From contig OZ024763.1 of assembly GCA_964016885.1 (NCBI GenBank), positions 27,218,001-27,282,000 of the forward strand: a DNA stretch of 64,000 bases. Direction: 5' to 3'. The notes beneath the pieces were generated by a model. That model was not told the origin of the DNA and ran no database searches. It saw only the letters and a list, made by a program, of their open reading frames with translations. This document shows positions 3,614-62,908 of the stretch, piece after piece. This DNA is from Eledone cirrhosa (Eukaryota). A program made the translations under genes and the position numbers. Position 1 is the first letter of the stretch. Each line of letters opens with the position of its first letter.

Positions 3614-3630
3614 ATATATATATATATATA

Positions 3631-4394
3631 GCGGCGATGAATTAGTTTAGCGAGGTTTTTTATATTAAATCGTGTGTCGAAACAAATATTGTTATACTCG
3701 GGGAGGGTCATATTTGTGTAATATTGCCAGAATTAATAACAGAACACACTCACTGTTTGGTTGGTTTTCGCTTCTCGCTGTCTTTTATATCTGCGATCTA
3801 ACTTACTCGGTCCTCAATGTTGCCATTGACTGACCGACGGTCAAAAATAATACAGATACAATATAGACACAAACACATATATATATAGTTTACATAATTT
3901 ACATAAATCTTTCGTTGCACATCTGCAACATCGTCAGTGGTGTTATATTTTTTCCTCCTGTTGTGTTGTATGTCTACGCCATTTTTTTTTTTTTAATTTA
4001 ATTTTATTTAATTTTATTTATTTATTTTTTTTTAAATGGCGTAGACATACAACACAACAGGAGGAAAAAATATAACACCACTGACGATGTTGCAGATGTG
4101 CAACGAAAGATTTATGTAAATTATGTAAACTATACCAAGGGCGGTGCCCCAGCATGGCCTCAGCCGGATGGCTGAAACAGGTAAAAGGGTAAAAGAGTAT
4201 ATATATGTGTTTGTGTCTATATTGTATCTGTATTATTTTTGACCGTCGGTCAGTCAATGGCAACATTGAGGACCGAGTAAGTTAGATCGCAGATATAAAA
4301 GACAGCGAGAAGTGAAAACCAACCAAACAGTGAGTGTGTTCTGTTATTAATTCTGGCAATATTACACAAATATGACCCTCCCCAAGTATAACAA
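3631..4394. mobile_element. PLE-like family C fold-back palindrome with a hammerhead motif in each arm
   Basis: Arms ~3690-3985 and ~4034-4394 are inverted copies. CTGACGA-t-GTTGCA(gatg)TGCAAC-GAAA at 4081-4108 (+), mirrored near 3905-3940 (-). Stems I and III are weak. Confidence 0.75.
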
Positions 4395-4496
4395 TATATA
4401 TATATATATATATATATGTAAAAGGTAAACAGAAATAACACAATCGGTACAGTATTTTGAAGGAATATATTAAGTTAACGCTTGAAATAGCTGGAA

Positions 4497-21387: not shown

Positions 21388-21574
21388 CACACACACACAC
21401 ACACACACCTTTAAGGGTGAAAGCAGCGATTCTTTGCTTAAACTTTAATCTGTTATTTTAATAAATATTTGCTCTACGGTTCTTATATATTTGATATATA
21501 TTTATCCTTATCGAGCCCTCTTTGGATTTTAGTCTCCAAATTTATTATTATTACTATAAATATATATATATAAA

Positions 21575-21900
21575 TTAACTATGGAGATATAAAAGATACA
21601 GAAGCGAAAACCAACCCAAACCAAACAGTGAGTCTGTTCTGTTATTATTTCTGGCAATATTACAACAATATGACCCTCCCCAAGTATAACAATATTTGTT
21701 ACGACACACGATTTCATATTAAAAACCTTGCAAAAGAAATATATATATATATTGTTATACTTGGGGAGGGTCATATTGTTGTAATAATATTGCCAGAATT
21801 AATAACAGAACACACTCACTGTTTGGTTGATTTTCGCTTCTGTATCTTTTATATCAGTTAATTCATTCGGTCCTCAATGTTTACCATTGACTGTTTTCTG
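21575..21900. mobile_element. PLE-like family C tails in tail-to-tail orientation around a short TA tract
   Basis: ATGACCCTCCCCAAGTATAACAAT on + at 21670, with its reverse complement at ~21751-21775. Confidence 0.7.
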
Positions 21901-25309: not shown

Positions 25310-27050
25310 CGTCTAGTGGCACATCTAGTCACATCTGCCGGCACATCAAGTTACACCTTGCAGTGCATTTAACTACATCTCCCATAACATCTTGTTACAT
25401 TTAGCGGCACATCTAGTTACATCTGGTGACGCATCTAGTTACATCTAGCAGTGCACCTAGTTACATTTGGTGACACATTTAGTTACATCTGGTGACACAT
25501 CTAGTTACATCTAATGACACATCTAGTGACACATATAGTTACATCTAGCAGTGCATTTAACTACATCTCCCATAACATCTTGTTACATTTAGCGGCACAT
25601 CTAGTTATATCTGGTGACGCATCTAGTTACATCTAGCAGTGCACCTAGTTAGATTTGGTGACACATTTAATTACATCTGGTGACACATCTAGTTACATCT
25701 AATGACACATCTAGTGACACATCTAGTTACATCTAGTGACACATCTAGTTACATCTGGTGACATAATCTAGTTACATCTGGTGACATAATCTAGTTACAT
25801 CTGGTGACACGTCTAGTTACATCTGGTGACACATCTAGTTACATCTAGCAGTGCACCTAGTTACATTTAGTGACACACCTAGTTACATCTAGCACTGCAC
25901 CTAGTTACATTTAGTGACACATCTAGTTACATCTAGCAGTGCACCTAGTTACATTTAGTGACACATCTAGTTACATCTAGCAGTGCACCTAGTTACATTT
26001 AGTGACACATCTAGTTACATCTAGCAGTGCACCTAGTTACATTTAGTGACACACCTAGTTACATCTAGCAGTGCACCTAGTTACATTTAGTGACACACCT
26101 AGTTACATCTAGCAGTGCACCTAGTTACATTTAGTGACACACCTAGTTACATCTAGCAGTGCACCTAGTTACATTTAGTGACACATCTAGTTACATCTAG
26201 CAGTGCACCTAGTTACATTTAGTGACACATCTAGTTACATCTAGCAGTGCACCTAGTTACATTTAGTGACACATCCAGTTACATCTAGCAGTGCACCTAG
26301 TTACATTTAGTGACACATCTAGTTACATCTAGCAGTGCACCTAGTTACATTTAGTGACACACCTAGTTACATCTAGCAGTGCACCTAGTTACATTTAGTG
26401 AAGCACCTAGTTACATCTAGCACTGCACCTAGTTACATTTAGTGACACATCTAGTTACATCTAGCAGTGCACCTAGTTACATTTAGTGACACATCTAGTT
26501 ATATCTAGCAGTGCACCTAGTTACATTTAGTGACACACCTAGTTACATCTAGCAGTGCACCTAGTTACATTTAGTGACACATCTAGTTACATCTAGCAGT
26601 GCACCTAGTTACATTTAGTGACACATCTAGTTACATCTAGCAGTGCACCTAGTTACATTTAGTGACACATCTAGTTACATCTAGCAGTGCACCTAGTTAC
26701 ATTTAGTGACACATCTAGTTACATCTAGCAGTGCACCTAGTTACATTTAGTGACACATCTAGTTACATCTAGCAGTGCACCTAGTTACATTTAGTGACAC
26801 ATCTAGTTACATCTAGCAGTGCACCTAGTTACATTTAGTGACACATCTAGTTACATCTAGCAGTGCACCTAGTTACATTTAGTGACACATCTAGTTACAT
26901 CTAGCAGTGCACCTAGTTACATTTAGTGATACATCTAGTTACATCTAGCAGTGCACCTAGTTACATTTAGTGACACACCTAGTTACATCTAGCAGTGCAC
27001 CTAGTTACATTTAGTGACACATCTAGTTATATCTTGCGCGACATTTAGTT
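25310..27050. repeat. 44-bp minisatellite (ACATCTAGCAGTGCACCTAGTTACATTTAGTGACACATCTAGTT)n, about 27 homogeneous units plus decayed flanks
   Basis: Homogeneous from ~25841 to ~27030. Built from CTAGTTACAT-like subunits. Confidence 0.95.
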
Positions 27051-27051
27051 A

Positions 27052-27226
27052 CCATGATTCCCGGCGTCGAAGGCGCTGCGTCCTCGAGGACGGAGGACGC
27101 ACCCTAATTTTGACAACCAAAAATTGTAAAAATAGATAATAAACAACCTTTGGCCTCCAGGACGCATGGTAGATTTTTTAGACTTATTTTAGGAAAAAGT
27201 AGTGTTTTCGACGCCGGGAAATACGG
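27052..27226. mobile_element. Tc1/mariner-superfamily (Tc2/pogo-like) MITE
   Basis: Imperfect TIRs CCATGATTCCCGGCGTCGAA / TTCGACGCCGGGAAATACGG, with TA on both sides. Confidence 0.8.
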
Positions 27227-30547: not shown

Positions 30548-30597
<50 letters not shown>

Positions 30598-30599
<2 letters not shown>

Positions 30600-31156
30600 T
30601 TTCTGAATTTGTTTGGCAAGATTCTTTATCTGAAATCGTGTGTTGAAACCGATATTGTTATACTTTGGGAGGGTCATGTTGCCAATAAGAAACACACGCA
30701 CCAGTTGCTTTCACTTCAATTTATTATATATTTATAAATTTACAAGTTTATAAATTTATAAAGTTGGTTGGTTGGTTCCACAACCAGATAGTTGTTTATA
30801 TATAGTCATAGTCCTTTCGTCACACACTCTGTGACCTCTTCAGTGACTGGGGATTCCTTTCTTTGTTTCTGTGCCTCTCCTTTGTTCTGTCCTACGCCAT
30901 TTTGTTTCTCTGGCGTAGGACAGAACAAAGGAGAGGCACAGAAACAAAGAAAGGAATCCCCAGTCACTGAAGAGGTCACAGAGTGTGTGACGAAAGGACT
31001 ATGACTATATATAAACAACTATCTGGTTGTGGAACCAACCAACCAACCAGAAATTTATAAATTTATAAACTTGTAAATTTATAAATATATAATAAATTGA
31101 AGTGAAAGCAACTGGTGCGTGTGTTTCTTATTGGCAACATGACCCTCCCAAAGTAT

Positions 31157-31165
<9 letters not shown>
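30598..31165. mobile_element. PLE-like family B fold-back palindrome with two hammerheads
   Basis: Arms ~30653-30899 / 30911-31164. The + strand at 30962-31006 reads AGTCA-CTGAAGA-gGTCACA(gagtg)TGTGAC-GAAA-GGAC-TA^TGACT, mirrored at 30804-30848 (-). Confidence 0.85.
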
Positions 31166-43535: not shown

Positions 43536-43836
43536 ATATTGTTATACTTGGGGAGGGTCATATTGTTATAATATTGCAAGAAATAATAATAAAACACACT
43601 CACTGCTTGGTTTGGATTGGTTTTCGCTTCTGTATCATTTATATCTCCATAGTTAATTTATCTGGCAATCGATGTTTATCATTAATTAACGAATGGTTAA
43701 AAATACAGAACCCAAACCAAACAAACAGTGAGTGTGTTCTGTTATTATTTCTGGCAATATTACAACAATATGACCCTCCCCAAGTATAACGATATTTGTT
43801 TCGACACACGATTTCATATCAAAAGCCTTGCAAAAC
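43536..43836. mobile_element. PLE-like family C fold-back fragment
   Basis: Inverted tail segments ~43538-43630 / ~43705-43790. Confidence 0.7.
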
Positions 43837-44318: not shown

Positions 44319-44970
<652 letters not shown>

Positions 44971-47168: not shown

Positions 47169-49265
47169 CATTTAAACATGATGATGAGTATGGTAGATAT
47201 ATATCTATATTATATATATTATATATATATATATATGTATTTATATATTATATATATATATACACACATATATATATATATGTATGTATATACATACATA
47301 CATATCATATATATGTATATACATACATACATATCATATATATATATATGTACATGATGATATATATAATTCATTGTTGCTTTCCTTTCCTCTTTCGTGT
47401 TTGACTTTTTAATCATATATATCATCCTTTAACGTCTAACTTCCATATGTATGTGTCTGTAGAAACCTGTACACACATGCACATATATATATATCATCAT
47501 CATCATCATCTTCGTTTAACGTCCATTTTCCACGCTAGCATGGGTTAGACGGGAGTTGTTCCACTTGAGGCAAGGCTGGTCGGGTGACCGTGTCTCGCTC
47601 ATATAGGACTATCTGGCAGGTTTTCTACGGCTGGATGCCCTTCCTAACACCAACCACATTTACAGTGTGGAACTGGGAACTTTTTACCGTGTTACCTACA
47701 CGACCACATTACAGCGTGGACTGTGTGTGTTTTTTGTCGTGACACCTACACGATCTCGATCTCATTATCTCGTGCTGTTGGTGGGAGTGGGAGGATAGGG
47801 TAGGGGTAGTGGATTGGGTGTATATTTGGTTAAGAGGTGCCTACTGACTGTAGGTTCCGCTTTGTACATAGGCAAGGTGGGTCTTCTGTATTACTGAGTA
47901 GCGCCAAAGATCTCGGTCCAGAGACATTGTCTTAGAGAGATGTGTGTGAGGTTGGAATTTATCAGATCCCAGGTTTTTTCTGGGTCTACCTACTCCGTAA
48001 CTACCATCAATTTTGATCGCCCTGCACTTTTTTAGGCAGCTGTCGTCTTTCATGTGCATCACGTGACCATACCAACGTAGTCTTCTCTCAAGTAAGCAGC
48101 ATTGATCCCTCTTATTCCTAATTTCTCACTTAGTTCATTTATGCTTTGCCGTTCACATATATTACTATTACACATCCAACGGAGCATGCATGCTTCGTTC
48201 CTTTCCAGTCTACGCAGGTCCTCTGCACGTAAGGCCCATGTCTCACTGCCATGTAGCATTGTTGTTCGTATACAGGCATCATACAATCTGCCTTTCATTT
48301 TTAGAGAGAAACCTTTTGTGGCCAACAGCCGTATAAACTCTCTGAACTTTTTCCATCCCGTTCTGACTCTGGCTACTGTACTTTCAGAACACCCTCCACC
48401 ACTGCTGATTTCGTCACCCAGGTAACGGAGAGTGTCTACTATTTCTATAGAACCATCTGGGCAATAGAAGGAGCTAGTATCCTTTGCACACTTGCGACTT
48501 ATTGCACCTGAGCAGTGGCCACATATAAAGTCTACGTTCTTAGATAGTTTACCTGTGATCCCACTACATCTTTTATGTACGCATTCTTTGCATTTGGGAC
48601 ATAAAATGGAATTTCTACCTACTCCTTTCCTACACACTGAGCATGGCCATTTCCCTGAGGGCACTTGTGCCCTATTTTCCTTTCTACAAACTAGAACTTT
48701 AGTCTTAGACAAGTTAACTTTAAGGCCTTTTGATTCTAGGCCATGCTTCCATGTTTCGAATTTCTTCTCTAGCTCAGCCATTGATTCAGCTATGAGCGTT
48801 AGATCATCTGCGTATAGTAGTTCCCATGGGCAGCCGGTCTTGAACTCTTTTGTTATAACCTGAAGGGCAATAATAAATAAGAGGGGGCTAAGGATAGAGC
48901 CTTGATGATGCCAACTTTTACACTAAATTCTTCACAATATTCATTGTTAATTCTAACCTTACTGACTGTTTCATTATACATAGCTTGTATAGCTCTCACA
49001 AGCCATTCATCTACACCTAGTTTTCTAAGAGCCCACCAGATAATGGAGCGGGGACTCTGTCAAAAGCTTTCTCCAGGTCTACAAAAGCTAAGTAGAGGGG
49101 TTTACTTTTAGCTAGGTACTTCTCTTGTAGTTGTCGTACAAGGAAAAGAGCGTCAGTGGTACTTTTACCTGACACAAACCCAAACTGCATTTCATCTAGA
49201 TCAATTCGCTCTCTGATTAGTTGCGCTATAACTCTTTCTGTGACCTTCATTACCTGGTCAACTAA

Positions 49266-50597
<1,332 letters not shown>

Positions 50598-50604
<7 letters not shown>

Positions 50605-50890
50605 ATGCTTTGAGAGGGTCGTGTTGCCAATAAGAAACACACGCACCAGTTGCTTTCACTCCAATTTATTATAAATTAAATTTATAAATTTCCGGTTGGT
50701 TGGTTGGTTGGTTCCACAACCGGACGGTTGTTCATATATTGTCAAAGTTCTTTCGTCACACATTCTGTGACCTCTTCAGTGACTGGGGATTCTTTTCTTT
50801 GTTTTTGTGCCTCTCATTTCTTATTGGCAACAATATCGGTTTCAACACACGTTTTCAGATAAAGAATCTTGCTAAACAAATTCAGAAACG

Positions 50891-50893
<3 letters not shown>
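50598..50893. mobile_element. PLE-like family B fragment with a hammerhead on the minus strand
   Basis: GTCAAAGTTCTTTCGTCACACATTCTGTGACCTCTTCAGTGACT at ~50741-50784, followed by a short inverted tail. Confidence 0.75.
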
Positions 50894-51108: not shown

Positions 51109-52245
51109 CATGTTCAGTGCCGTAGACGAGATAACTCGTCCTAACATGTATGCATTTCAGTGCCACAGACGAGATAACTCATCCTCACATGTTTGAACTC
51201 ATTTCCAACAATTCTTACCTTCAAAGTTATAAACTCTTTTCCAACAATTCATAACTTCAAGGTTTTAAACCCGTTTCCAACAGTTCATAACTTCAAGGTT
51301 TTAAACTCGTTTCCAACAGTTCATAACTTCAAGGTTTTAAACTCGTTTCCAACAGTTCATAACTTCAAGGTTTTAAACTCGTTTCCAACAGTTCATAACT
51401 TCAAGGTTTTAAACTCGTTTCCAACAGTTCATAACTTCAAGGTTTTAAACTCGTTTCCAACAGTTCACAACTTCAAGGTTTTAAACTCGTTTCCAACAGT
51501 TCACAACTTCAAGGTTTTAAACTCGTTTCTAACAGTTCATAACTTCAAGGTTTTAAACTCGTTTCCAACAGTTCACAACTTCAAGGTTTTAAACTCGTTT
51601 CCAACAGTTCACAACTTCAAGGTTTTAAACCCGTTTCCAACAGTTCACAACTTCAAGGTTTTAAACTCGTTTCCAACAGTTCATAACTTCAAGGTTTTAA
51701 ACTCGTTTCCAACAGTTCACAACTTCAAGGTTTTAAACTCGTTTCCAACAGTTCACAACTTCAAGGTTTTAAACCCGTTTCCAACAGTTCACAACTTCAA
51801 GGTTTTAAACTCGTTTCTAACAGTTCATAACTTCAAGGTTTTAAACTCGTTTCCAACAGTTCACAACTTCAAGGTTTTAAACTCGTTTCCAACAGTTCAC
51901 AACTTCAAGGTTTTAAACTCGTTTCCAACAGTTCATAACTTCAAGGTTTTAAACCCGTTTCCAACAGTTCATAACTTCAAGGTTTTAAACTCGTTTCCAA
52001 CAGTTCATAACTTCAAGGTTATGAACTCTTTTCCAACAGTTCATAACTTTAAAGTTATGAACTCGTTTCCAACAGTTCACAACTTAAAGCTAGATGGGGT
52101 TACTAGTTTATTGATGTGAAATTTGTCAATCATTCAGATATGCGTTGCTAATAAATGATTGTTTAAAAAAAAATGGTCATTTTACTGGAAAAAAAACCTG
52201 GCACAGCAACTGTAGCTGTGTAAAATATACACAACAGTCAACAGG
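51109..52245. mobile_element. TTAA-flanked (piggyBac-like) non-autonomous element carrying a 36-bp minisatellite, nested in another TTAA MITE
   Basis: TTAA at 51105 and 52246, with ends CATGTTCA / TCAACAGG. The array (AACTCGTTTCCAACAGTTCAYAACTTCAAGGTTTTA)n has about 25 copies at ~51195-52090. Confidence 0.65.
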
Positions 52246-53699: not shown

Positions 53700-53958
53700 T
53701 AAATGAAGTAATTCCGTCGGAAAAGTCCAGGAAAAAAGAGTGCTTTATGTAGGTAACAGAGCTTAATAGTTATGTAATAAACAACATAAGGCAATTATTT
53801 CATTTACCAGTGGTTTCTTAAAAGCAAAAAAAAATTGCTTTCAATCATCAGAATGAAAAAACGCCAGGATTTTTTCATTCTGATGATTGAAAGCAAAATT
53901 TTTTTGCTTTTAAGAAACCACTGGTAAATGGAATAATTGCCTTATGTTGTTTATTACA

Positions 53959-53962
<4 letters not shown>
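53700..53962. mobile_element. PLE-like family E fold-back element with two intact hammerheads
   Basis: The + strand at 53873-53933 reads TTTCATT-CTGATGA-TTGAAAGCAAAA(ttt)TTTTGCTTTTAA-GAAA-CC(act)GG-TA^AATGGAA. The mirror at 53798-53858 (-) has a perfect 7-bp stem I. Confidence 0.85.
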
Positions 53963-53989
<27 letters not shown>

Positions 53990-60255: not shown

Positions 60256-60308
<53 letters not shown>

Positions 60309-60310
<2 letters not shown>

Positions 60311-60647
60311 TGTTATACTTGGGGAGGCTCATATTTGTGTAATAATATTGCCAGAATTAATAACAGAACACACTCACTGTTTGGTTGGTTTTCGCTTCTG
60401 TGTCTTTTATATCAGTTAATTTAATTTATTTGGTCCTCAATGTTACCATTGACTGCCCAAAGGTAAAAAATACAGATACAATATAGACACAAACACATAT
60501 ATATAGTCTATCAAACTTCTTTTGTTGCACATCTGCAACATCGTCAGTGGTGCTATTTATGTTTCCACCCGTTGCATTGTATGCTTACGCCAAGTATAAC
60601 AATATTTGTTTCGACACACGATTTCATATCAAAAACCTCGCAAAACT
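60309..60647. mobile_element. PLE-like family C copy (decayed hammerhead on the minus strand, short inverted tail)
   Basis: TGTTGCACATCTGCAACATCGTCAGTGG at ~60523-60550. Switches to the + tail CAAGTATAACAAT at TACGCCA. Confidence 0.7.
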
Positions 60648-61524
60648 ATATATATATATATATATGTAGATAAATCTACCAAGAGTTTACGGTAGTGTCC
60701 AATCCGTATGAAGAACTCAATGTAGTCCGGATATCATGGAAAGAAGAGATGCAATGAAAAATCACTTTCGGTGAAAGATAAACGGAATACAGAGTCAAGA
60801 TAAAATATTAAAAAAATAATGAATAAAACAATGAAACAGTTCCTTATATTAAACAAAAAAAGTTCATTATTTAACGATCGTTTCTAGGATATATATGTGT
60901 TAGAATTGGCATGCATATTCAACAGATCTATGTACAAAATTATACAAAATTATACAAACTATCAAGATTAAATATACATACCAAACACACATATATGCCG
61001 TCTTCAGAAATAATGAAATATATTTATTGATAATAACAACAATTCAAAATTTCAGGTCCGTTTGGGAACGGAGTTCAAATTGACCAATGAAAATACAAAA
61101 AATTTTATGCAGTTTGGTGTGTGTATATACATGTAATTAACTTCGTACACATATTTATACAAAGATATATGCTCACATGCATACGCATGCCAAAAAGATG
61201 TATGCAAATACAAAAATTCAAGGCTAATGTCTCTGTAAGTTTATAATCCACAGATAAAATGCGTATAGACACATAAATATGAAATAAAAGTATACACATA
61301 TTCACATACTCACACATATCCGTACACTCACACACACACGCGCGCATATGCATAAACATACACATAATTATATACATAATTATATATATATATATATGTG
61401 TGTGTATGTATATATAATATACATATATGAAGTATTTCCATAGAAAGAGTAAAGGAAAGGAGAGTGCTCTATGTATGCTACAGAGCTATTTAATTATGTA
61501 ATAAACAACGTAAGACAATTATTC

Positions 61525-62576: not shown

Positions 62577-62908
62577 GGAGGCACATGGCTTAGTGGTTAG
62601 AGCATTGGGCTTGCAATCGAAAGGTTGTGAGTTCAATTCTCAGACCGGGTGATGTGTTGTTTCCTTGAGCAAGACACTTTATTTCACATTGCTCCAGTTT
62701 ACTCACCTGTAGAAATGAGATGATAGGGACTGCGGTCCCTATCATTCCACTGCAAAGTGGTCGTGGAGGTGCCACGGCAAAAAAGCACCCAGCACTCACT
62801 GTAAATGAGGTTGGTGTTAGGAAGGGCATCCAACTGTAGAAATCAAGCCAGAATCAGTTCCCGTCCCACCCTTGCAAGCAGGGAAAAGTGGACGTAAAAT
62901 GAAATGAT
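62577..62908 (+). mobile_element. Composite SINE, family 2
   Basis: Near-identical to 53311-53640. Confidence 0.85.

What the first reader, a model, noticed from the sequence alone, without database searches (positions are those of the whole stretch)
30891..30920. Families B and C fold back at the same YY1-like motif, suggesting a defined transcript 5' end
Seen: the apex lies right after TACGCCA(T) in four independent inserts from two families (~3977-3985, 30895-30904, 44668-44677 and the strand switch at ~60590). In the three palindromes the element strand reads AAAATGGCG, CAAAATGGCG or CAAGATGGCG, about 45-60 nt upstream of the hammerhead core. Established: AANATGGCG is the YY1 consensus, found just downstream of transcription start sites, including the L1 internal promoter. 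Inference: cDNA runs to a fixed RNA 5' end set by an internal promoter and then snaps back. These would then be complete copies of a short transcript, not random truncations.
Basis: partly seen in the sequence, partly recalled or inferred. Interest (0 to 1): 0.75.

Follow-up and report, generated by a model that had tools for sequence, protein, structure and literature searches.

The report
Penelope palindromes mark element's transcription start
These mirror-image repeats are the ends of two related Penelope-type jumping genes, and over a thousand copies in this animal genome turn around within the same short zone beside a promoter-like motif, which likely marks where the element's RNA begins and gives a testable handle on how such elements are copied.

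Summary
Families B and C are pseudo-LTRs of two sister endonuclease-bearing Penelope-like retrotransposons (about 4.15 kb, 68% protein identity), not stand-alone short elements. Palindromes turning at the motif number 1072 in B, against 2, 22 and 11 at three control positions, and 164 in C against 11. Among copies picked by their hammerhead, 22 of 100 (B) and 17 of 91 (C) end in a 28-48-nt zone just upstream of AARATGGCG; most others run on into the reading frame. Both families keep an NRF1-like site upstream of the zone and the YY1/TISU-like motif downstream, the layout of a TATA-less promoter. The zone is likely a dispersed transcription start, not one fixed base, and the promoter straddles it, so short copies lose the upstream part. 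A separate short transcript is not needed. Both arms appear to share one template; double priming on one RNA fits somewhat better than simple snap-back. A cap-derived G is suggested but test-dependent. No RNA evidence was obtainable. The scan noted these Penelope ends on other DNA of this genome, but not this hot spot.

The parts
30597..30909 (-). Family B pLTR arm with tail (tail = start of the element ORF, about 30597-30655); 5' end 9 nt upstream of the A of ATGGCG
30895..30904 (-). CAAAATGGCG, YY1/TISU-like motif; reads ATG-GCG-TAG
   Evidence: motif core from PMC2518114
30910..30910 (.). Single central base templated by neither arm (G in front of the left arm on the element strand); cap-type, inferred
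   Evidence: one search compared with long copies
30911..31162 (+). Family B pLTR arm without tail, starting at the T of ATGG; element ORF ATG at 31139; followed by (TA)n
30962..31006 (+). Minimal type I hammerhead motif (CTGAAGA...GAAA; stem II folds); predicted cut near 31001, about 90 nt downstream of the motif
   Evidence: no Rfam hit at gathering score; fold assignment by inspection
44367..44682 (-). Second family B palindrome, arm with tail; motif CAAGATGGCG at 44668-44677
44683..44869 (+). Second family B palindrome, arm without tail, internally deleted
3630..3985 (-). Family C palindrome, arm with tail; motif at 3977-3985, then an A/T spacer to 4033
4034..4397 (+). Family C palindrome, arm without tail, with an unrelated insert near 4135-4197; hammerhead core at 4081
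60308..60592 (-). Family C arm ending at the T of ATGG
60590..60648 (+). Family C partner arm reduced to pLTR end plus tail, joined on CCA microhomology
50597..50891 (.). Family B insert that switches strand about 14-22 nt downstream of the motif (counter-example)
43536..43836 (.). Family C palindrome turning downstream of the hammerhead (counter-example)
21570..21893 (.). Family C pLTR-end fragments in inverted arrangement, no motif (counter-example)

Best explanation
These inserts are pseudo-LTR copies of two sister Penelope-like retrotransposons whose 5' ends pile up just upstream of AARATGGCG, likely because that zone is the element's dispersed Pol II transcription start and reverse transcription runs off the RNA there. 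Shown: the elements, the pile-up, an NRF1-like site upstream and a YY1/TISU-like site downstream of the zone in both families, a tail on exactly one arm, and joint limits on the two arms. Inferred: transcription starts between the two sites in an upstream pLTR; the element RT primes at its two sites in the ORF start (with and without tail), which lie only about 260-330 nt from that RNA 5' end, so priming there gives a short run-off cDNA, like retroviral strong-stop DNA, while priming at a downstream pLTR gives the long, variably truncated copies; both ends of a (TA)n break would each prime a cDNA on the same RNA, and the two are joined head to head, a minority perhaps by snap-back. Short copies lack the upstream promoter half and are probably dead ends.
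For: Element identity: RT (YSRYVDD) + C-x4-C-x2-C linker + GIY-YIG frame ends about 170-190 nt upstream of the motif; ORF ATG lies inside the pLTR end (weak RVT_1 hit, E 9e-4); B vs C 68% identical over 651 aa. Pile-up: 1072 vs 2/22/11 and 164 vs 11. Unbiased sample anchored on the hammerhead: B 22 of 100 ends in -24..+3 against 9 in -25..-200 and 4 in +4..+50 (about 12-fold per base, p near 1e-18, which was run with 23 by a one-off overcount); C 17 of 91 in -40..+7 against 1 in -41..-200. Promoter layout: CATGCGC in 59 of 69 long B and 68 of 72 long C copies; motif varies almost only AAAATGGCG/AAGATGGCG in both families; YY1 motif lies downstream of starts in human (PMC2518114, PMC10979970) and about 10 nt after them in a sponge, which also has Nrf-1 sites (PMC4773876). 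Known PLE starts lie in the pLTR (PMC2377424, PMC8557442). Shared template: of 15 inserts where both arms reach the zone, 5 have both ends in it, 10 both beyond, 0 mixed (hand count; p 0.001 if independent). Tail on exactly one arm in 32 of 32 scorable B palindromes (49 scored, 17 unscorable) and 10 of 10 scorable C (30 scored), matching two RT start sites and extension of both target strands in vitro (PMC11167929). One junction recurs at 3 unrelated loci with the tail on opposite arms. G before an A-starting arm: 17 of 32 distinct B junctions vs 27% under blunt joining, p 0.001; 8 of 14 vs 4 of 27 control ends, p 0.01, hand-curated.
Against: No RNA 5' end was seen: no raw RNA reads were on offer. 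Stricter cap tests were not significant: G in 7 of 25 (B) and 12 of 29 (C) non-templated bases and 9 cap-type vs 4 opposite-type (p 0.13); several C-x-G centres in C can be templated by a CTGA upstream variant. The zone is broad and made of A/C or A/T simple sequence; about 4 of the 17 C ends may be microhomology joins to (TA)n. 13 of 48 B palindromes restart at exactly the T of ATGG with 3-16-nt loops, which suits snap-back. At least one junction (L214) has a cap-type base on the shorter arm while the other arm is 11 nt longer, which one capped template does not explain. Samples come from the first 30-400 Mb of one contig. NRF1, ETS and YY1 labels rest on consensus likeness only.
Confidence: 0.62

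Rival explanations
1. Same RNA 5' end, but one cDNA snaps back on itself and copies itself to make the second arm.
For: 13 of 48 B palindromes have one arm starting at the T of ATGG, the first place where a T-ended cDNA finds an A, with loops of 3-16 nt. No mixed inserts is also expected. Arms differ less than loci do (2.9 vs 7.3 substitutions per 95 nt).
Against: Many junctions have 0-2 nt between arms that both reach upstream of the motif, too tight for a hairpin loop; the copy would have to stop exactly at the tail-less site every time (32 of 32); a few junctions carry an extra C on both equal-length arms (L331; others by eye).
Confidence: 0.2
2. No RNA end is involved: the A/C- or A/T-rich run followed by the first T is a sequence-driven stop or template-switch site on a longer RNA or cDNA.
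For: Simple-sequence context; broad zone; cap-G tests inconsistent; some C ends join (TA)n by microhomology.
Against: Similar A/C- and A/T-rich runs fill the 150 nt upstream and hold few ends (9 in B, 1 in C); B and C differ in sequence there yet both pile up before the shared motif; the template strand has no predicted structure here (z +1.0); arms that pass the zone do so together.
Confidence: 0.1
3. The short palindromes are a self-sufficient SINE- or retrozyme-like family transcribed from an internal YY1 promoter and copied as units.
For: About 13% of B hammerhead hits could sit in such palindromes (2 x 1072 of 16475); some junction strings recur.
Against: Junctions are diverse (32 distinct among 35); a recurring junction has the tail on opposite arms, so it arose anew; no tandem monomers as in retrozymes in the sampled loci; the conserved NRF1-like site is missing from short copies.
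Confidence: 0.05
4. The RNA 5' end is set by hammerhead cleavage, or the palindromes arise by self-priming on an antisense RNA (proposed in PMC3846280).
For: Three partner arms start at +89..+92, near the predicted cut (imprecise BLAST ends). The antisense idea was offered for head-to-head PLE palindromes.
Against: The pile-up is about 100 nt upstream of the predicted cut; cleavage was dispensable in vitro (PMC11167929); A>G changes on the sense strand of one pLTR (L093) point to a sense template; the zone sits where a sense promoter predicts.
Confidence: 0.03

Closest known systems
Endonuclease-bearing Penelope-like elements, Neptune/Nematis type (PMC8557442, passages; PMC3846280, parts 1 and 3 of 5 and passages)
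   Same: RT + Cys linker + C-terminal GIY-YIG; pLTR holding hammerhead and ORF start; partial tandems; inverted 5'-truncated partner; tail on one end; palindromic junctions; microsatellite targets.
   Different: A genome-wide pile-up of 5' ends and apices at one promoter-like zone is not described in the passages read; the tail here is about 55-65 nt rather than 30-40.
Drosophila virilis Penelope promoter and Chlamys-3 start site (PMC2377424, parts 2-3 of 4; PMC8557442)
   Same: [quoted passage not shown]
   Different: Penelope uses an internal Inr/DPE promoter with an intron; here the motifs are NRF1-like upstream and YY1/TISU-like downstream, and the start is inferred from insertion ends, not mapped.
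Anolis Poseidon in vitro (PMC11167929, parts 1-2 of 4)
   Same: Two internal RT start sites in the ORF start define the tail; both target strands are cut and extended; product length is set by the RNA 5' end; hammerhead cleavage not needed.
   Different: Different clade; that work did not describe head-to-head joining or a natural RNA 5' end.
L1 full-length 5' ends and YY1/TISU (PMC9341517 and PMC2831318, passages; PMC2518114, abstract and one section)
   Same: YY1-type motif just inside the transcript; bimodal short/full length; untemplated G read as a cap copy.
   Different: L1's promoter travels wholly inside the RNA (recalled); here upstream sites are regained only through the pLTR tandem. 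The ATG of the motif is followed by one codon and a stop.
Metazoan non-LTR retrozymes (bioRxiv 10.64898/2026.07.22.740005, part 1 of 5)
   Same: Short non-coding type I hammerhead units related to pLTRs.
   Different: Retrozymes are head-to-tail monomers cut by the ribozyme; these are head-to-head run-off copies that begin upstream of the cut site and are colinear with coding elements.

Membership tests
EN+ Penelope-like element | Single frame with RT followed by GIY-YIG endonuclease | tested here: met
   919-aa and 675-aa open stretches with YSRYVDD and VVYSIRC...YIGETAR; Pfam gave only a weak RVT_1 hit and no GIY-YIG hit, so the nuclease is called from motifs
EN+ Penelope-like element | pLTR from partial tandem, containing ORF start; optional tail | tested here: met
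   L093 pLTR-ORF-pLTR; L180 tandem with 4147-nt period; tail = ORF start
EN+ Penelope-like element | Inverted 5'-truncated partner, tail on one end | tested here: met
EN+ Penelope-like element | Hammerhead motif in pLTR | tested here: met
   core motif and stems I-II by pattern and fold; not found by Rfam at gathering score; activity untested
Neptune/Nematis clades | CX2-5CxxC linker before GIY-YIG | tested here: met
   C-x4-C-x2-C in both families (definition)
Neptune versus Nematis | RT phylogeny with reference elements | not tested
   no reference PLE proteins were at hand
YY1/TISU promoter element | Core AAGATGGC / AAAATGGCG | tested here: met
   60 of 69 long B and 63 of 72 long C copies read AARATGGCGTAG; the 3' flank is TAG, not GC as in TISU
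YY1/TISU promoter element | Lies +5..+30 of a mapped start and binds YY1 | not testable with these tools
   no raw RNA reads; position inferred from insertion ends only
Capped Pol II 5' end | Untemplated G in front of complete copies | tested here: inconclusive
   significant, not
Non-LTR retrozyme | Head-to-tail monomers bounded by ribozyme cuts, no coding parent in cis | tested here: not met
   copies are colinear with the coding element and start about 100 nt upstream of the cut

The most novel reading that the evidence does not exclude
Penelope-like elements make a strong-stop-like product: a dimeric RT primes twice near the 5' end of one capped mRNA, from both strands of one break, runs both cDNAs to the cap and joins them head to head, so the genome's palindromes are a fossil map of the element's start sites and show that the inverted pLTR comes from a sense, capped template, driven by an LTR-like NRF1/YY1 housekeeping promoter.
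Probability: 0.4. Interest if true: 0.72.

Novelty: new variant of a known kind. Interest (0 to 1): 0.52.

Why it matters
How Penelope-like elements form inverted pLTRs and palindromic junctions is open: PMC3846280 leaves sense versus antisense template undecided and PMC11167929 leaves the steps after priming unvalidated. A hot spot with over a thousand natural junctions, tied to a promoter-like zone in two families, turns this into direct tests (cap mapping, promoter mutants, two-strand priming in vitro) and offers a way to read PLE start sites from DNA alone. It also means each 3' pLTR may carry a ready Pol II promoter facing host DNA at roughly 25,000 or more places in this genome (16475 + 8993 exact hammerhead hits). 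The elements themselves are ordinary members of a known class.

Tried and rejected
DNA search of the own genome with a B arm returned nothing because common words are skipped; exact patterns were used instead. Rfam found no hammerhead at gathering score. A G/T + motif pattern count as a genome-wide cap test was rejected: 15 of 30 and about 18 of 30 inspected loci were point variants inside continuing copies, and G did not exceed T. An all-against-all BLAST timed out and was replaced. The first family C palindrome pattern missed the main TGGCGTAGA variant (15 hits, 6 background) and was redone. MAFFT did not register the B and C motifs in one column, so motif conservation was counted per family. 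RNA search gave only assembled contigs with 0.09 word share for RNA runs: no evidence either way, and no reads were laid, so expression and 5' ends stay open. Hammerhead cut as the main 5' end: rejected by position. Trans-splicing or a 3' splice site: no shared leader at junctions and no pyrimidine tract. Rows dropped: 3 misindexed alignments (L003, L093, L110), resolved as long copies; L160 and L165 misaligned on TA runs, resolved as long copies; 6 tandem-duplication, 2 reference-edge and 6 rearranged rows left out of the 53 control junctions.

Full report
Observation. The four sites are as described. At 30891-30920 the left arm runs 9 nt past the A of ATGGCG, one base (30910) belongs to neither arm, and the right arm restarts at the T. 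One arm of each palindrome carries an extra 55-65-nt end and both ends abut (TA)n. Three further B/C inserts in the window switch strand elsewhere, so the window count is 4 of 7. Positions below are relative to the A of ATGGCG (0).

What the families are. The window lies in a 3.0-Gb genome. A 22-mer of the B hammerhead has 16475 exact hits and a 26-mer of C has 8993. I fetched all 100 listed B hits and 91 of the 100 listed C hits with flanks. Most continue upstream through an A/C-rich 3' UTR into a frame with RT, a C-x4-C-x2-C linker and a GIY-YIG nuclease. L093 is pLTR-ORF-pLTR, L180 a tandem of 4147-nt units; the ORF's ATG lies inside the pLTR end and the extra end is the ORF start. These are the described features of endonuclease-bearing Penelope-like elements of Neptune/Nematis type (PMC8557442, passages; PMC3846280, parts 1 and 3 of 5 and passages). 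B and C are 68% identical over 651 aa: sisters, so their shared motif is inherited.

The hot spot. In the hammerhead-anchored sample, which does not select on the motif, 22 of 100 B ends fall in -24..+3, 9 in -25..-200 and 4 in +4..+50; about 12-fold per base (run with 23 by my overcount). In C, 17 of 91 fall in -40..+7 (11 of them in -15..+7) and 1 in -41..-200. Genome-wide, palindromes with both arms ending within 30 nt in total of a given 10-mer number 1072 at the B motif, 2 at -55, 22 at +49 and 11 near -170; the four 10-mers survive in 59, 56, 66 and 60 of 67 long copies. For C the counts are 164 and 11 (one control only). Counts may include a few segmental duplicates.

Why there. Upstream of the zone, 59 of 69 long B and 68 of 72 long C copies carry CATGCGC, at -38..-42 in B and mostly -60..-90 in C; the main B form is GCGCATGCGCA, the NRF1 consensus as recalled; B also has CCGGATGT, ETS-like as recalled. 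Downstream lies AARATGGCG, which in both families varies almost only at the R, the free position of the YY1 site as recalled. The AAGATGGC core is confined to +5..+30 of human start sites and is a YY1 element (PMC2518114, abstract and section 5; PMC10979970, passages); a sponge has a YY1/Kozak-like motif about 10 nt after starts and Nrf-1 sites near them (PMC4773876, passages). Mapped PLE starts lie in the pLTR (PMC2377424, parts 2-3 of 4). So the zone sits where a dispersed start is predicted. This is inference: no raw RNA reads were offered. The promoter would straddle the start, as in an LTR, and short copies lose its upstream half; none of the window's copies has CGCATGCGC. The predicted hammerhead cut is near +91, so it does not set this end; cleavage was also dispensable in vitro (PMC11167929, parts 1-2 of 4).

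Cap signature. An untemplated G before complete L1 copies is read as a cap copy (PMC9341517 and PMC2831318, passages). Here G precedes an A-starting arm in 17 of 32 distinct B junctions against 27% for random blunt joins (p 0.001), and in 8 of 14 zone ends against 4 of 27 control ends (p 0.01, hand-curated). Stricter tests that demand a base explained by neither arm were not significant (7 of 25, 12 of 29; 9 vs 4, p 0.13), and over all ends 8 of 22 vs 10 of 53 was not significant. Suggestive only.

How the palindrome forms. Where both arms reach the zone, both stop in it (5) or both pass (10), never one of each (hand count; p 0.001): the arms share a template. The tail is on exactly one arm in 32 of 32 scorable B and 10 of 10 scorable C palindromes. 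In vitro a Poseidon protein primes at two sites in the ORF start that bracket the tail, extends both target strands and is predicted to be a dimer. Many junctions have 0-2 nt between arms, and a few have an extra C on both equal-length arms (L331). This favours two cDNAs primed from the two sides of one break on one RNA. Against it, 13 of 48 B palindromes restart at exactly the T of ATGG after a 3-16-nt loop, as snap-back on a T:A pair would, and L214 fits neither cleanly. Because the priming sites lie only about 260-330 nt from the inferred start, the ordinary mRNA can yield these short copies; a dedicated short transcript is possible but not needed. One junction recurs at three unrelated loci with the tail on opposite arms, so it formed anew and was not copied from a master palindrome.

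Novelty. The elements, pLTR promoters and palindromic junctions are known; PMC3846280 explains the palindromes by self-priming on an antisense template and leaves the question open. Paper searches listed no report of a 5'-end or apex hot spot or of YY1/NRF1 motifs in PLEs; the PLE papers had no occurrence of YY1. The library lacks most subscription journals, PMC4209133 was seen only as a listing, and no supplements were read, so prior mention cannot be excluded. Earlier notes of this scan describe Penelope ends and two-sided priming elsewhere in this genome and none matched the start-site words; they are unchecked notes, not support. Verdict: real, strong pattern; likely the element's transcription start; new variant of a known kind; interest 0.52.

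Noticed in passing
L093, upstream pLTR (minus strand, about 795-960; G000:C1:2083438-2088940): Dense A>G changes on the element strand from about the motif to 150 nt downstream, destroying the hammerhead core; looks like ADAR hyper-editing copied into DNA and points to a sense RNA template.
   Followed up: no
window 30893-30900 (-) and all long copies: The motif reads ATG-GCG-TAG (TAA in a few C copies): a two-codon upstream frame about 240 nt before the element ORF, kept in both families; may let a TISU-like ATG coexist with the real start.
   Followed up: partly
window 53766-53965: A third, unrelated hammerhead-bearing palindrome (CTGATGA...GAAA on both arms) beside (TA)n whose longer arm also ends just past TGGCG at 53862-53866.
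   Followed up: no
L065, L067, L087 partner arms: Three inverted partner arms start at +89..+92, near the predicted hammerhead cut; a possible minor class of ribozyme-set ends (BLAST ends imprecise).
   Followed up: no
L093, L107, L108, L180 ORFs: Long Asn/His/Thr-rich low-complexity stretch upstream of RT in both families, recalling the N-rich inserts in rotifer Penelopes; frameshifts in these copies fall in or near it.
   Followed up: no
L180 (G000:C1:14381000-14390900): Head-to-tail array of at least four 4147-nt family C units ending in an inverted copy; a candidate source locus.
   Followed up: partly
window 49265-50554: 401-nt inverted repeat of an RT-like coding fragment around a palindromic, TA-centred insert at 49840-50183; the B insert at 50597 follows directly.
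   Followed up: no
window 62586-62643: tRNA-like Rfam hit at the head of a repeat found several times in the window; probably a tRNA-derived SINE.
   Followed up: no
window 25312-27052, 51192-52089: Tandem arrays with periods of about 88 and 72 nt.
   Followed up: no
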